From contig JBPCVC010000024.1 in the NCBI GenBank assembly GCA_051010835.1, forward strand, positions 8,229-72,228: a stretch of 64,000 nucleotides of DNA, written 5' to 3'. The notes beneath the pieces are model-generated. The model was given only the letters and a program-made list of their open reading frames with translations. It did not search any database and was not told where the DNA came from. Origin of the DNA: Mariniblastus sp. Lineage in GTDB: Bacteria; Planctomycetota; Planctomycetia; Pirellulales; Pirellulaceae. Made by a program: the position numbers and the translations under genes. This document shows, one piece after another, positions 32,399-35,182 of the stretch (position 1 is the stretch's first letter; each line of letters opens with the position of its first letter).

Positions 32399-33547
32399 AT
32401 GACAATCGTCGATCGCTATTTACTATCTGTCTTTCTGAAGACATTTTTAATTTGCTTCGCCAGCTTCTTCGGACTTTTTCTCGTCATCGACGGTACTGGG
32501 AATGCTGACGAGATATCGGCGATTGCCGCGTCAGATGGATTGTCTGCGGCGATCTTTGATCGATATTACCCACAGTGTGCCGCCCGTTTCAATGAACTTG
32601 CGGGGGTATTTATTTTAGTTGCAGCCATATTCTCAATTAGTCTGTTGCAACGGAATCGAGAGGTCACGGCAATCGAAGCTGCTGGAATCAGTAAGATGAG
32701 GATATTTAAGGTCGTTTTTGTTGCGGCATCAATAATTATCGTGATGACGATTGTGAGCCGTGAAGTTCTGATTCCCAAAGTTGGTGACCGCTTAACGATG
32801 GATTGGCAGGAATGGACAGAATGGAAGACCTCGTTGGCACCTACGAAAACATTTGACGAGAAGATTGATTACAAAACAGGAGTGGCCTTTTCGGGGGCTT
32901 GTCTTTTACTTTCAAAAGATGGGATCTCGGAACCGCAAGTGAGAATCCCAAGTGAGTTAGAAGCGGGGTTCGAAAAAGTCAAAGCCGAGAGTGCTTATTT
33001 TGAGGTGGCGGAGGAAGGTAAGCCTGCGGGATTTCGTTTTCACAAAGTCAGTTTTCCTAAGGGGATGCACGAATTGAATTCGGTGGAAAGCGAGGGGGGG
33101 GAGACAATCGTCTACACCCCGCAGGATTTTGAGTGGTTGCACAATAATCAGTGTTTTATTGCCACCGAACTCAATGCTAAAAAGTTGCTGGTCAGTGCTG
33201 ATGCCAAATATAAATCAACTCCTGAGCTGATTGTTGATCTGAAAGCGCCCAAAAAACGGAAAGCGGATGAGCTGGCAGTCGAACTCCACTCAAGATTCCT
33301 TAAGCCGGTGATGGACTTTACGCTGCTCTTGTTAGGACTGCCTCTGGTTATTCGGAAGCTGGAAAAGAATATTGTGTCTGGTGTTTTAGCTGGGGTGGGG
33401 GTTATCGTCTTATTCCTGTTGTTAGAATTGACCTGTCACTCTTTGGGAGCCACAGGGATCATTGCATCCCCCGCGCTCTCCGCTTGGTTACCATTGTTGA
33501 TTTTGTTCCCTGTTTCATTGATTTTTATGCGCGATCTCTCACGTTAA
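32399..33547 (+). CDS. LptF/LptG family LPS export permease
   Basis: MTIVDRYLL start, NREVTAIEAAGIS, three N-terminal plus three C-terminal TM segments, ALSAWLP. Confidence 0.85.
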   Translation: MTIVDRYLLSVFLKTFLICFASFFGLFLVIDGTGNADEISAIAASDGLSAAIFDRYYPQCAARFNELAGVFILVAAIFSISLLQRNREVTAIEAAGISKMRIFKVVFVAASIIIVMTIVSREVLIPKVGDRLTMDWQEWTEWKTSLAPTKTFDEKIDYKTGVAFSGACLLLSKDGISEPQVRIPSELEAGFEKVKAESAYFEVAEEGKPAGFRFHKVSFPKGMHELNSVESEGGETIVYTPQDFEWLHNNQCFIATELNAKKLLVSADAKYKSTPELIVDLKAPKKRKADELAVELHSRFLKPVMDFTLLLLGLPLVIRKLEKNIVSGVLAGVGVIVLFLLLELTCHSLGATGIIASPALSAWLPLLILFPVSLIFMRDLSR

Positions 33548-33658
33548 ATTTTCGCTTAAATATCATGTCGAGCAGACATTTATTCAGCTTGAATTGGGAT
33601 GTCATCAATCAGAATTGGTTTTGGCCTCGGATTAAATTTACAGATAGAGGAGTTTGGG

Positions 33659-34303
33659 ATGAGGATATTAATCTGTGCGGCGATGGTCTTCACTGTTGCA
33701 GCTGTTCTCGGATGCGATGGAGGGCAGCTGTCTGAGAATGAGATCGCGCAAGCGGCTCAAGATGGAAAAGTGAAGGCAGCTCTTGAGAACCAGGGTCGGC
33801 AGCCATTAAGCAAGCCGCCGGAATTGGAGGAGAGCCCAGCGGAACCGGTTGTAACTGAGAGTTCCGAGACGTCATTGGTGGCCGCCGAGGTTTTGGAAGC
33901 TGCGGTGAAGTCGGCCAAGGCAGAAAGCAAAGCGGTCTTCGTGCACTTTACTGCGGACTGGTGAGGGTGGTGCCACAAACTCGAGGAGTTCCTCGTAAAT
34001 AACAGCCCCTTGTTCGAAGACAATTATCAGGTTGTTGCGATTGCGACTGACAAGATGGAAGGTGGCCAAGCCATGTTCGATCAAATGAAAAAGGAGCGTT
34101 CCGGTGGCATGCCGTGGATTGTAATTCTTGACGGTGACGGGAAGGAGCTTATTACATCGGTTGGACCAGAAGGTAATATAGGCTGTCCCGTGCAGCCCGC
34201 TGAAATCGATTATTTCGTGACAATGATCAAATCATCTTCGTCTTCAGACGAGCAGCGTCTGGAAGAAATTCGCGAGGCGTTAGTGAATCGTAAGAAGAAC
34301 TAA
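33659..34303 (+). CDS. Thioredoxin-fold lipoprotein, probable selenoprotein (W-U-G-W-C, UxxC); in-frame TGA at 33962-33964
   Basis: Track ORFs 33599-33964 and 34010-34303 are in the same frame with no stop other than this TGA; read-through gives KAVFVHFTADW(U)GWCHKLEEFL...GGMPWIVILDGDGKEL; lipobox VLG-C. Confidence 0.88.
33982..33995 (+). promoter_or_regulatory. Candidate bacterial SECIS hairpin of the thioredoxin-like gene
   Basis: CGAGG-AGTT-CCTCG; loop G at 33988 is 24 nt after the UGA. Confidence 0.6.
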
Positions 34304-34384: not shown

Positions 34385-35182
34385 CTAAACATTGAGATGT
34401 GGAGTTGCTTGTTGAAGTAACTCTGCAGTTGCGGCGGCGCAGAAAAAAGGTTTTTCCAAATCGATTTCATTTCCTCTAAAATCAGCCACCGAAGCCCCTG
34501 CTTCGCGGGCGATTAGCCAGCCAGCAGCAACGTCCCATTTGGCGAGGCTGGTTGCCCAGTAGCCATCTGCACGCCCACATGCGACGTAGCACAGATTAAG
34601 GGCAGCGGAACCGAGTCGGCGAATGCTGCCAACGTTTTCCAGCATGTTCAAAAATCGAACGACTTCCGGATTAGTACGGGTCATGCCGCGAGGGAAACTG
34701 AATACAAACAAAGATTTGTCAATCTCCTTGCAGCCGCTTGCATGAATGGGCTCGCCATTTAATTTCGCCCCCAATCCCCGCGATGCCCAGTAACATTCCT
34801 CGAGCACGGGGTCCAAGACGGTGCCAACGAGTGGGGTCTGTCGATGATACAAGGCGATGGAAACGGCAAAGGACCTAAGGCTGTGAACGTAGTTCGTCGT
34901 CCCGTCGAGAGGATCAACAATCCAGCAAAAATCTGAATGAGATGTTGTATCGGATTCGCCGGTTGTTTCTTCTCCGATAAATTGATGGTCGGGGAATTCA
35001 GATTTCAAGAAATCTTGAATTACTTGCTGAGATTCAAGATCCGCCTGCGTTACTAAATCTCGAAATCCTTTTTCCCGGGTCGTAGTTTTCCCCATCCATT
35101 TTAAAAGAACTTGACCGCCTCGCCTGGCTGCTTCGCGACTGGCCACTGAATAGATTTCCAGTTCATTGGGGCTGATTTTCAT
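34385..35182 (-). CDS. Inositol monophosphatase family protein (SuhB-like)
   Basis: DLVTQAD, GEE, WIVDPLDGTTNY, RLGSAAL, WDVAAG. Confidence 0.92.
   Translation of the reverse strand: MKISPNELEIYSVASREAARRGGQVLLKWMGKTTTREKGFRDLVTQADLESQQVIQDFLKSEFPDHQFIGEETTGESDTTSHSDFCWIVDPLDGTTNYVHSLRSFAVSIALYHRQTPLVGTVLDPVLEECYWASRGLGAKLNGEPIHASGCKEIDKSLFVFSFPRGMTRTNPEVVRFLNMLENVGSIRRLGSAALNLCYVACGRADGYWATSLAKWDVAAGWLIAREAGASVADFRGNEIDLEKPFFCAAATAELLQQATPHLNV

What the first reader, a model, noticed from the sequence alone, without database searches (positions are those of the whole stretch)
33659..34303. Exported thioredoxin lipoprotein with a UxxC active site, immediately downstream of lptF/G
The two track ORFs join through one TGA that falls on the nucleophilic position of W-C-G-W-C, giving W-U102-G-W-C105. 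The cis-Pro motif (MPW) follows in the second half. The N-terminus is a lipoprotein signal (MRILICAAMVFTVAAVLG-C), so this would be a periplasm-facing selenoenzyme. Its place after an Lpt permease suggests an envelope redox role, for example disulfide handling of outer-membrane assembly proteins (inference). Standard pipelines will split or pseudogenise it.
Basis: partly seen in the sequence, partly recalled or inferred. Interest (0 to 1): 0.85.

Follow-up and report, generated by a model that had tools for sequence, protein, structure and literature searches.

The report
Selenocysteine thioredoxin-fold lipoprotein gene
The "stop" codon inside this gene almost certainly encodes selenocysteine at the active site of an exported, lipid-anchored thioredoxin-like redox enzyme of a marine planctomycete; the gene is real and mis-split by annotation pipelines, but it belongs to a long-known class of bacterial selenoproteins.

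Summary
Window 33659-34303 (+) is one 214-codon frame interrupted only by TGA 33962-33964, giving W-U102-G-W-C105 in a Thioredoxin_7 domain behind a lipoprotein signal peptide.

Reading it as selenocysteine is strongly supported:
- The genome has tRNA-Sec, selA, selB and selD, and uses TGA as an ordinary stop elsewhere.
- The TGA is kept in 8 congeneric genomes (46-80% protein identity) and in about 45 further metagenomic sequences. It aligns with Cys (TGC/TGT) in Cys-type homologues.
- The AlphaFold model is one confident thioredoxin fold spanning the TGA.
- A hairpin, CGAGG-AGUU-CCUCG, starts 17 nt after the UGA. It pairs in all 37 distinct Sec-form sequences, shows compensatory changes, and uses codons this genome disfavours. 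Cys-type relatives with the same L-E-E-F-L peptide differ at exactly these silent sites.

The genome holds at least eight more candidate selenoproteins, mostly with exported-type N-termini, including a DsbD. This gene is therefore one of many. The proposed link to Lpt rests only on synteny that is lost in more distant orthologues. Whether the enzyme reduces or oxidises is unknown.

Verdict: a new member, possibly an uncatalogued PF13899 UxxC subfamily, of a known kind. Interest is modest.

The parts
33647..33652 (+). Shine-Dalgarno-like GAGGAG, 6 nt before the ATG at 33659
   Evidence: Read from the sequence. It supports the 33659 start over the upstream in-frame ATG at 33599 that gene callers used (P0002).
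33659..34303 (+). Selenoprotein gene: 214 codons plus TAA, encoding a Thioredoxin_7-type lipoprotein with a U-G-W-C motif
33659..33715 (+). Lipoprotein signal peptide MRILICAAMVFTVAAVLG followed by lipobox Cys19 (TGC 33713-33715). Residue +2 is Asp.
   Evidence: Sequence. G-C is kept in all 7 full-length orthologues. lspA and lgt are present.
33716..33870 (+). Low-confidence linker, roughly residues 20-70, between the lipid anchor and the fold
   Evidence: AlphaFold pLDDT 39-65 over residues 1-70. This stretch is poorly conserved in alignment A1.
33962..33964 (+). In-frame TGA, read as Sec102, the N-terminal residue of the U-x-x-C redox motif
33971..33973 (+). Cys105 (TGC), the second redox-motif residue
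   Evidence: Invariant column in A1
33982..33995 (+). Candidate SECIS hairpin: stem CGAGG (33982-33986), loop AGUU (33987-33990), stem CCUCG (33991-33995). It starts 17 nt after the UGA and lies within the L-E-E-F-L codons.
34112..34114 (+). Pro152 of G-G-M-P-W, the predicted cis-proline of the thioredoxin fold
   Evidence: Invariant in A1. It lies immediately before strand 153-157 in the model.
34184..34186 (+). Cys176 in N-I-G-C-P, a third Cys that goes with the Sec-type clade. Its role is unknown.
   Evidence: Cys in 53 of 59 Sec forms, and Phe or Tyr in most Cys forms
32399..33547 (+). Context: LptF/LptG-family permease gene, 111 nt upstream on the same strand
   Evidence: Pfam PF03739, 118.9 bits. 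Synteny.
34385..35182 (-). Context: inositol-monophosphatase-family gene, convergent with the selenoprotein gene
   Evidence: Pfam PF00459, 231.5 bits. Synteny.

Best explanation
Window 33659-34303 is a single functional gene for a selenoprotein.

Proposed mechanism of Sec insertion:
- The ribosome reaches UGA 33962-33964.
- SelB carrying Sec-tRNA(Sec) is held by a small mRNA hairpin that starts 17 nt downstream: CGAGG-AGUU-CCUCG, with a G-U in the loop.
- Selenocysteine is inserted instead of termination.

Proposed fate of the product:
- It has a lipoprotein signal peptide, so it is exported unfolded, lipidated on Cys19 by Lgt, and cleaved by LspA.
- It then faces the periplasm on a roughly 50-residue flexible tether.
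- Its Thioredoxin_7 (DsbD-gamma/DsbH-like) domain carries a U102-G-W-C105 centre that cycles between selenol/thiol and selenenylsulfide. This performs thiol-disulfide exchange on envelope proteins, with Sec as the attacking residue.

What is shown in silico:
- one continuous frame;
- a conserved UGA aligned with Cys in homologues;
- a thioredoxin fold spanning the UGA;
- complete Sec and lipoprotein machinery;
- a conserved, covarying hairpin.

What is inferred:
- actual Sec insertion;
- lipidation and periplasmic location;
- oxidoreductase activity;
- most likely a reductase or isomerase fed by the genome's own Sec-containing DsbD. The direction of electron flow and the substrates are not known.
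For: 1. Sec machinery. tRNA-Sec scores 67.4 bits and ARAGORN calls it SeC(tca). selB scores 369 bits, selA 588 bits and selD 258 bits, all above their cut-offs.

2. TGA is otherwise a normal stop. 423 of 1607 long frames end in TGA.

3. The TGA is conserved. Eight genomes of the genus carry the orthologue with exactly one in-frame TGA at 46-80% protein identity (translations). Seven of these eight have tRNA-Sec. Two independent metagenome assemblies carry the identical sequence (L065, L066).

4. In alignment A1 the U column is Cys in every Cys-type homologue. Conservation is strongest after the TGA: GWCHKLEEFL, GGxPW, NxGCP.

5. AlphaFold gives pLDDT above 90 for residues about 70-213. This is one thioredoxin fold, with U102 at the N-end of helix 103-114 and P152 before strand 153-157. 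The best Foldseek matches are 3fk8, thioredoxins, 3f9u and DsbH 2ju5.

6. The hairpin.
- Its inner 5 bp are paired in 100% of 37 distinct Sec-form sequences. Three columns show compensatory changes, and no register shift comes close.
- In the two-domain clade the stem extends to 7-8 bp.
- Silent sites inside it are invariant while neighbouring silent sites vary freely.
- It uses CTC-GAG-GAG-TTC-CTC, although this genome prefers GAA (63%) and TTT (62%), and CTC is only 18% of Leu codons.
- Cys-type homologues lack it.
- Two Cys forms with the same R-L-E-E-F-L peptide differ at exactly those silent sites: CTG breaks a pair, and GAA removes the loop G.

7. Other candidate selenoprotein genes of the same genome have hairpins starting 13-18 nt after the UGA; four of them have a G at the first or second position of the apical loop.

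8. Lipoprotein features. The lipobox Cys is conserved, and lspA and lgt are present.
Against: - There is no direct evidence: no reads, transcripts, proteomics or selenium labelling.
- In the window's own clade the hairpin has only 5 bp. Single-sequence folding energies are not significantly better than shuffles, with z from -1.7 to +0.5.
- By my recollection, the 17-nt spacing differs from the 11 nt of E. coli fdhF.
- No Rfam family matches.
- One TGA carrier, G021 (86% complete), shows no tRNA-Sec hit.
- The metagenome scan pattern required K-L-E-[EK], so that sample is enriched for the hairpin's peptide, though not for its codons or for TGA.
- The redox direction, the electron donor and the substrates are pure inference.
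Confidence: 0.87

Rival explanations
1. The gene is a pseudogene or carries an assembly error. A nonsense TGA has inactivated a Cys-type thioredoxin gene, and only a 101-residue fragment, or nothing, is made.
For: Under table 11 the frame is split. Public gene calling gives a 121-aa fragment. There is no expression evidence.
Against: - The same TGA is kept in 8 congeneric genomes at 46-80% identity and in about 45 further distinct sequences.
- Protein conservation is highest after the stop.
- Identical sequence appears in independent assemblies (L065, L066).
- The Sec machinery is present.
- The hairpin is conserved.
Confidence: 0.02
2. The UGA is decoded, but not as Sec. Possibilities are near-cognate readthrough inserting Trp, Cys or Arg, or a local reassignment of TGA. 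The product would be a W-W/C-G-W-C protein.
For: The sequence alone cannot tell which residue is inserted. Low-level UGA readthrough by tRNA-Trp or tRNA-Cys occurs in bacteria (general knowledge).
Against: - TGA ends 26% of long frames, so it is not reassigned.
- The codon aligns only with Cys, as expected for Sec/Cys pairs.
- A dedicated hairpin with conserved silent sites follows the codon, and it decays in Cys forms.
- The same genome has at least eight other UxxC/CxxU-type candidates in known selenoprotein families.
Confidence: 0.04
3. It is a real selenoprotein, but it works as a periplasmic oxidant (DsbA-like) or as a peroxide or sulfenic-acid scavenger. It would not be a DsbD-fed reductase or isomerase.
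For: - Sec-containing DsbA-like and peroxiredoxin-like proteins are known predicted families (PMC1088965).
- The C-G-W-C dipeptide is not that of any characterised reductase.
- The extra conserved Cys176 could act as a resolving residue.
Against: - The best family and structure matches are DsbD-gamma, DsbH and thioredoxin-type proteins, which are reductants. There are no matches to DsbA.
- AhpC/TSA and Redoxin hits are below their cut-offs.
- The genome encodes a full DsbD that could donate electrons.
Confidence: 0.25
4. The enzyme is functionally dedicated to the Lpt machinery, for example forming or rearranging disulfides in LptD-like outer-membrane proteins, and it is co-transcribed with lptF/G.
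For: - It lies on the same strand 111 nt after lptF/G, with no predicted terminator between them.
- The order LptFG - Trx - IMPase is kept in all close relatives and in the more distant G022 orthologue.
Against: - The adjacency is absent in three other congeneric orthologues (L024, L026, L027) and in all two-domain Sec-type relatives.
- No conserved partner gene was found in their flanks.
- The retained synteny may simply reflect recent common descent.
Confidence: 0.1

Closest known systems
UxxC 'thiol:disulfide interchange protein' / 'Trx-like 2' selenoproteins (PF13098 or cd02953 DsbD-gamma type), predicted by Kryukov and Gladyshev and in the GOS survey (PMC2398784; tables in PMC9312934 and PMC13188914)
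   Same: - A thioredoxin-fold domain of the DsbD-gamma / Thioredoxin_2/7 type.
- Sec at the first position of UxxC, with abundant Cys homologues.
- Marine bacteria as the source.
- A bacterial SECIS directly after the UGA.
- The window protein passes the PF13098 cut-off (36.2 bits against 27).
   Different: - I could not compare it with the catalogued exemplar sequence.
- Its best domain is PF13899 rather than PF13098.
- It has a lipoprotein anchor, a W-U-G-W-C motif and an N-x-G-C-P third Cys.
- It forms its own well-supported clade of 19 sequences, all Sec (support 100/99).
Trx7/PDZ domain-containing (seleno)protein, NCBIfam NF041199, the only PF13899 selenoprotein family in the catalogues
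   Same: Thioredoxin_7 domain, a selenoprotein, known from environmental bacteria.
   Different: - It scores 15.3 bits against a cut-off of 300.
- The motif is CxxU there and UxxC here.
- There is no PDZ domain here.
Tandem Thioredoxin_7 'thioredoxin family proteins' of Planctomycetota, in both Cys-type forms (P0003-P0021) and Sec-type forms (for example L080, L089, L100)
   Same: - True homologues at 30-48% identity.
- Same W-C/U-G-W-C motif, G-G-x-P-W and N-x-G-x-P.
- Sec-type members share the identical SECIS hairpin.
   Different: - They have two domains, an N-domain that always has Cys followed by a C-domain, and an ordinary signal-peptide-like N-terminus.
- The window protein has only the C-type domain, behind a lipobox and a linker.
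Cys-based periplasmic Thioredoxin_7-type reductants: the DsbD gamma domain, Chlamydia DsbH (2ju5), and the Xylella 'disulphide isomerase' 3fk8
   Same: They share the fold and the position of the active site. They are the best sequence and structure matches.
   Different: - Scores are far below the family cut-offs: DsbH 33 against 190, DsbD 27 against 330.
- Here Sec replaces Cys.
- The dipeptide is G-W.
E. coli fdhF-type bacterial SECIS (SelB-binding hairpin inside the coding sequence)
   Same: - It lies immediately 3' of the UGA within the ORF.
[quoted passage not shown]
- The stem shows compensatory changes.
   Different: - It has only 5 bp in this clade, and 7-8 bp in relatives.
- The spacing is 17 nt, against 11 nt in fdhF by my recollection.
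- No bulged U.

Membership tests
Bacterial SelB/SECIS-dependent selenoprotein gene | In-frame UGA aligned with Cys in homologues, with protein conservation on both sides | tested here: met
   The U column is Cys in all Cys forms, and conservation is strongest after the UGA.
Bacterial SelB/SECIS-dependent selenoprotein gene | Genome encodes tRNA-Sec, SelA, SelB and SelD | tested here: met
   All are above the curated cut-offs.
Bacterial SelB/SECIS-dependent selenoprotein gene | Stem-loop just downstream of the UGA, with a small apical loop containing G | tested here: met
   - Hairpin at 33982-33995 with loop AGUU.
- It is 100% paired in 37 distinct sequences, with 3 compensatory columns.
Bacterial SelB/SECIS-dependent selenoprotein gene | Selenium is actually incorporated, shown by 75Se labelling or MS | not testable with these tools
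   No expression or proteomic data.
Thioredoxin fold, Thioredoxin_7 (PF13899) | Profile match above the gathering score | tested here: met
   39.3 bits against 27. PF13098 scores 36.2 against 27.
Thioredoxin fold, Thioredoxin_7 (PF13899) | C/U-x-x-C at the N-end of helix 1, and a cis-Pro loop before strand 3 | tested here: met
   In the AlphaFold model U102 lies at the start of helix 103-114, and P152 lies before strand 153-157. Both columns are invariant. The cis conformation itself is not observable here.
Bacterial lipoprotein | Signal peptide ending in a lipobox with an invariant Cys, and Lgt and LspA encoded in the genome | tested here: met
   - The signal peptide ends V-L-G-C19.
- G-C is conserved in 7 of 7 full-length orthologues.
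- lspA scores 95 bits and lgt 186 bits.
- Lipidation itself was not tested.
Trx7/PDZ (seleno)protein NF041199 | Score above the 300-bit cut-off, a CxxU motif and a PDZ domain | tested here: not met
   15.3 bits, a UxxC motif and no PDZ hit
TsoB rhodanese/DsbD-fusion selenoprotein NF045694 | Score above the 805-bit cut-off and the fusion architecture | tested here: not met
   34.3 bits, covering only the C-terminal Trx part of the profile
DsbH (NF043050) / DsbD (NF001419) | Score above the curated cut-off | tested here: not met
   33 against 190, and 27.4 against 330. This is resemblance, not membership.
'Thiol:disulfide interchange protein' UxxC selenoprotein (PF13098) as catalogued | PF13098 domain with UxxC, and homology to the exemplar WP_011366075.1 | tested here: inconclusive
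   The domain and motif criteria are met. The exemplar sequence could not be fetched for comparison.

The most novel reading that the evidence does not exclude
This planctomycete may run a largely selenium-based envelope redox relay. A DsbD whose periplasmic gamma domain carries U-P-T-C would pass electrons to a set of exported or lipid-anchored UxxC enzymes, including this lipoprotein. This lipoprotein in turn would service disulfides of the LPS-transport or outer-membrane assembly machinery encoded next to it. On the catalogue side, the W-U-G-W-C Thioredoxin_7 family, in single-domain lipoprotein and two-domain secreted forms, would be an uncatalogued selenoprotein subfamily. Its SECIS would dictate the K-L-E-E-F-L peptide.
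Probability: 0.12. Interest if true: 0.6.

Novelty: new member of a known kind. Interest (0 to 1): 0.3.

Why it matters
For annotation, the gene should be called as one 214-residue selenoprotein, not as a 121-aa fragment plus an orphan ORF. The same correction applies to dozens of relatives in marine Planctomycetota.

For biology, it adds a lipid-anchored Thioredoxin_7 UxxC form to the list of exported selenoproteins. Together with the Sec-containing DsbD and the other UxxC candidates in the same genome, it suggests that much of this organism's envelope thiol chemistry uses selenium. That bears on selenium demand in marine Pirellulaceae.

The hairpin is also a clean example of an RNA signal fixing both the codons and the peptide (L-E-E-F-L) of a protein.

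None of this overturns current understanding.

Tried and rejected
- Single-sequence folding of the region after the UGA was uninformative. Over 75 nt the z-score was -0.59, and over 49 nt it ranged from -1.7 to +0.5. Only the comparative analysis revealed the hairpin.
- RNAalifold on 8 sequences proposed a helix pairing the UGA itself with CUC. I preferred the 5-bp hairpin register because it alone is 100% paired and covaries.
- The Rfam scan of 33900-34100 gave only noise.
- NCBIfam has no model above its cut-off.
- The PDB sequence search gave only weak Trx-family hits.
- I searched the flanks of 43 relatives for a conserved partner gene. Beyond the family itself, one unidentified flanking ORF cluster recurred in 13 loci; I did not identify it or link it to redox function.
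Identical sequence in independent assemblies (L065, L066) serves as a substitute.
- L032 showed '1 TGA', but this is just its terminal stop.
- The search of earlier findings by place and by sequence returned nothing.

Full report
THE OBSERVATION

Window 33659-34303 (+) is a single 214-codon frame ending in TAA. Its only interruption is TGA 33962-33964, which gives ...F-T-A-D-W-U102-G-W-C105-H-K-L-E-E-F-L.... Under table 11 the frame splits into ORFs 33599..33964 and 34010..34303.

Pfam places residues 79-158, on both sides of the TGA, in Thioredoxin_7 (39.3 bits) and Thioredoxin_2 (36.2 bits). Weaker hits go to Thioredoxin, DsbH, AhpC-TSA and Redoxin.

The N-terminus, MRILICAAMVFTVAAVLG-C19-D, is a lipoprotein signal peptide with a lipobox. 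A GAGGAG motif lies 6 nt before the ATG at 33659.

The neighbours are an LptF/LptG permease gene (32399-33547, same strand, 111-nt gap) and a convergent inositol-monophosphatase-family gene (34385-35182).

IS THE TGA DECODED AS SELENOCYSTEINE?

(a) The machinery is present. The window's genome is a 5.35-Mb, 134-contig assembly, 94% complete, from a marine Pirellulaceae / Mariniblastus-like planctomycete according to the titles of its closest relatives. It encodes:
- tRNA-Sec (67.4 bits; ARAGORN calls it SeC, anticodon tca);
- SelB (369 bits);
- SelA (588 bits);
- SelD (258 bits).
All are above their curated cut-offs. TGA is otherwise a normal stop, ending 423 of 1607 frames of at least 400 codons.

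(b) The TGA is conserved. A six-frame search of 60 related genomes found the orthologue in 8 genomes of the genus, at 46-80% protein identity, each with exactly one in-frame TGA. Translations show that it is always at W/[AQ]W-U-G-[WY]-C. Seven of these eight genomes have tRNA-Sec; the exception is an 86%-complete MAG.

A metagenome scan with peptide patterns that start after the Sec codon returned 49 loci. In every one where the codon could be read, the C-terminal-type domain has TGA. Two independent assemblies, L065 and L066, match the window exactly over this stretch (TGA plus 48 nt) and over the 112 residues after the Sec codon, which excludes a sequencing error.

(c) There is a Sec/Cys pair. 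In alignment A1 the U column is Cys in every Cys-type homologue (W-C-G-W-C). The strongest conservation lies after the TGA: G-W-C-H-K-L-E-E-F-L, G-G-x-P-W and N-x-G-C-P. Cys forms use TGC or TGT.

(d) It is one fold. AlphaFold2 on A1 gives pLDDT above 90 for residues about 70-213. The model is a thioredoxin fold with U102 at the N-end of helix 103-114 and Pro152 immediately before strand 153-157. Foldseek finds the Xylella 'disulphide isomerase' 3fk8, thioredoxins, the exported cytochrome-c-biogenesis-related domain 3f9u, and DsbH 2ju5. A product truncated at residue 101 would lack most of the fold.

(e) There is a SECIS candidate. Seventeen nucleotides after the UGA lies the hairpin CGAGG-AGUU-CCUCG (33982-33995), formed by the codons CTC-GAG-GAG-TTC-CTC-G.
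- Among the 8 genus orthologues all 40 pair cells are standard pairs, and two columns show compensatory changes: G-C to A-U, coupled to an E-to-K change plus a silent TTC-to-TTT; and C-G to U-A.
- In 37 distinct Sec-form sequences the inner five pairs are 100% paired, with three compensatory columns. No shuffle reaches the observed pairing or covariation score, and all shifted registers fall to 33-56% paired.
- In the two-domain clade the stem extends to 7-8 bp (GCUCGAGG-AGUU-CCUCGAGC).

Three controls argue that the RNA, not the peptide, is being conserved.
- Silent sites just upstream (the third positions of Gly, Cys and Lys) vary freely, while those inside the hairpin are invariant or covary.
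- The hairpin uses codons this genome disfavours. GAG is 37% of Glu codons, TTC is 38% of Phe codons and CTC is 18% of Leu codons, so the joint expectation is about 0.002.
- Two Cys-type homologues with the same R-L-E-E-F-L peptide read CTG-GAG-GAG-TTC-CTC and CTG-GAG-GAA-TTC-CTC. They differ at exactly the silent sites that are fixed in Sec forms: one change breaks the fifth pair and the other removes the loop G.
Other Cys forms have no hairpin at all.

Other candidate selenoprotein genes of this genome have hairpins beginning 13-18 nt after their UGA; four of them have a G at the first or second position of the apical loop. This fits the geometry seen here. [quoted passage not shown]

Caveats. 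The stem is short in this clade. Single-sequence folding energies are not significant. Rfam has no matching family. No experimental data could be consulted.

WHAT THE PROTEIN IS

The lipobox Cys is preceded by Gly in all seven full-length orthologues, and lspA and lgt are present. I therefore infer the following:
- export through the Sec translocon;
- lipidation of Cys19;
- a tether of about 50 residues that is poorly conserved and modelled with low confidence;
- a periplasm-facing thioredoxin domain.

Five of the seven orthologues have Asp at position +2. In E. coli this is the signal for retention in the inner membrane (general knowledge). Whether the rule applies in Planctomycetota is unknown.

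A maximum-likelihood tree of the domain shows the single-domain lipoprotein forms as a clade of 19 sequences, all Sec, with 100/99 support. This clade is nested in a larger group of two-domain secreted proteins: an N-domain that always has Cys, and a C-domain with either Sec or Cys. Within that group, Sec/Cys switches occurred several times (architectures).

A third Cys, in N-[IV]-G-C-P (C176 here), is present in 53 of 59 Sec forms, whereas most Cys forms have Phe or Tyr there. By analogy with thioredoxin, this loop borders the active-site groove.

HOW IT LIKELY WORKS

Step 1. SelB-GTP carrying Sec-tRNA(Sec) binds the hairpin and delivers Sec at the UGA. This is inferred from the evidence above.

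Step 2. The mature lipoprotein carries out thiol-disulfide exchange, with the Sec102 selenolate as nucleophile and Cys105 resolving the intermediate to a selenenylsulfide. This is inferred from the family and from the position of the motif.

Step 3. Its closest relatives by sequence and structure are reductant-type periplasmic domains (DsbD-gamma, DsbH, thioredoxin). The same genome encodes a complete DsbD (DsbD_N + DsbD_TM + Thioredoxin_7) whose gamma domain itself reads U-P-T-C. The most likely role is therefore a DsbD-fed reductase or isomerase.

An oxidant or peroxide-scavenging role cannot be excluded.

The Lpt connection rests only on adjacency. The order LptFG - Trx - IMPase is kept in close relatives and in G022. 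It is absent in L024, L026, L027 and in all two-domain relatives. No other conserved partner was found.

COMPARISON WITH WHAT IS KNOWN

UxxC thioredoxin-fold proteins are the most common class of predicted bacterial selenoproteins. [quoted passage not shown]

These catalogues list only one PF13899 family, the Trx7/PDZ protein with CxxU (NF041199). The window protein fails that model (15 bits against 300), along with every other NCBIfam selenoprotein model. By the catalogues' own rule, which defines a subfamily by domain plus motif, it could count as an uncatalogued PF13899 UxxC subfamily. It also passes PF13098, so it may fall under the 'thiol:disulfide interchange protein' family. I could not compare it with that exemplar.

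Periplasmic and even lipid-anchored selenoenzymes are not new in principle. Examples from my own knowledge are periplasmic formate dehydrogenases and the [NiFeSe] hydrogenase of Desulfovibrio.

Earlier notes of this scan report several other exported thioredoxin-fold seleno-lipoproteins in Planctomycetota. This agrees with the view that such genes are common.

VERDICT

P0002 in the public collection is exactly the truncated 121-aa product.

This is a new member, perhaps a new subfamily, of a well-known kind. The Lpt-related function is speculation. Interest is modest, at 0.3.

The points most worth keeping are:
- the very clean SECIS evidence;
- the Sec-rich envelope redox set of this genome, including a Sec-DsbD;
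- the annotation fix for dozens of relatives.

Noticed in passing
window 1780-2010 (+), TGA at 1822-1824: A second candidate selenoprotein lies in the same window. It is a 76-residue Rdx/SelW-like protein with the motif C-E-S-U (Pfam Rdx, 64.9 bits), and standard gene calling would split it.
   Followed up: partly
own genome G000:C16:54684-57272 (-): A full-length DsbD (DsbD_N + DsbD_TM + Thioredoxin_7) has a C-terminal periplasmic domain that reads D-W-U-P-T-C, with a 7-bp hairpin 17 nt after the UGA. It is a possible electron donor for the window protein.
   Followed up: partly
own genome G000: C20:23943-24263 (-), C26:4601-5770 (-), C21:17907-18239 (+), C30:9146-9679 (+), C63:7326-8729 (-), C38:4287-5849 (+), C73:13601-14581 (-): There are further in-frame-TGA candidates in known selenoprotein classes. 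Together they indicate a Sec-rich set of candidates, most with exported-type (hydrophobic or lipobox) N-termini:
- thioredoxin (UPPC);
- an AhpC/TSA lipoprotein (UPPC) and a related fragment;
- a Prx-like protein (UPPC);
- a TlpA-like protein with TPR (UAGC);
- a deiodinase-like protein with EF-hands (C-L-T-U-P-P-F);
- a second Thioredoxin_7 protein (S-T-U-P-P-C).
   Followed up: partly
metagenome loci such as L080, L089, L096, L100 (TGA at locus position 1498-1500): Two-domain secreted Thioredoxin_7 proteins of marine metagenomes carry Cys in the N-domain (N-W-C-G-W-C) and Sec in the C-domain (P-W-U-G-W-C). They share the same nucleotide-identical hairpin, CTCGAGGAGTTCCTCG. No NCBIfam model reached its cut-off for the window protein, and I found no PF13899 UxxC family in the catalogues.
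   Followed up: partly
own genome G000:C86:3641-4549 (-), locus L018: The selD match lies in an open frame of 740 aa, much longer than a stand-alone SelD. This suggests a fusion protein.
   Followed up: no
window 34184-34186 (Cys176): The third Cys, in N-I-G-C-P, tracks the Sec-type clade: Cys in 53 of 59 Sec forms, against Phe or Tyr in most Cys-type homologues. It might be part of the redox centre.
   Followed up: partly
L114 (gene 516-1472) and L115 (gene 3001-3813): Two Cys-type homologues keep the R-L-E-E-F-L peptide and a partly decayed version of the hairpin. This looks like relics of Sec-to-Cys conversion.
   Followed up: partly
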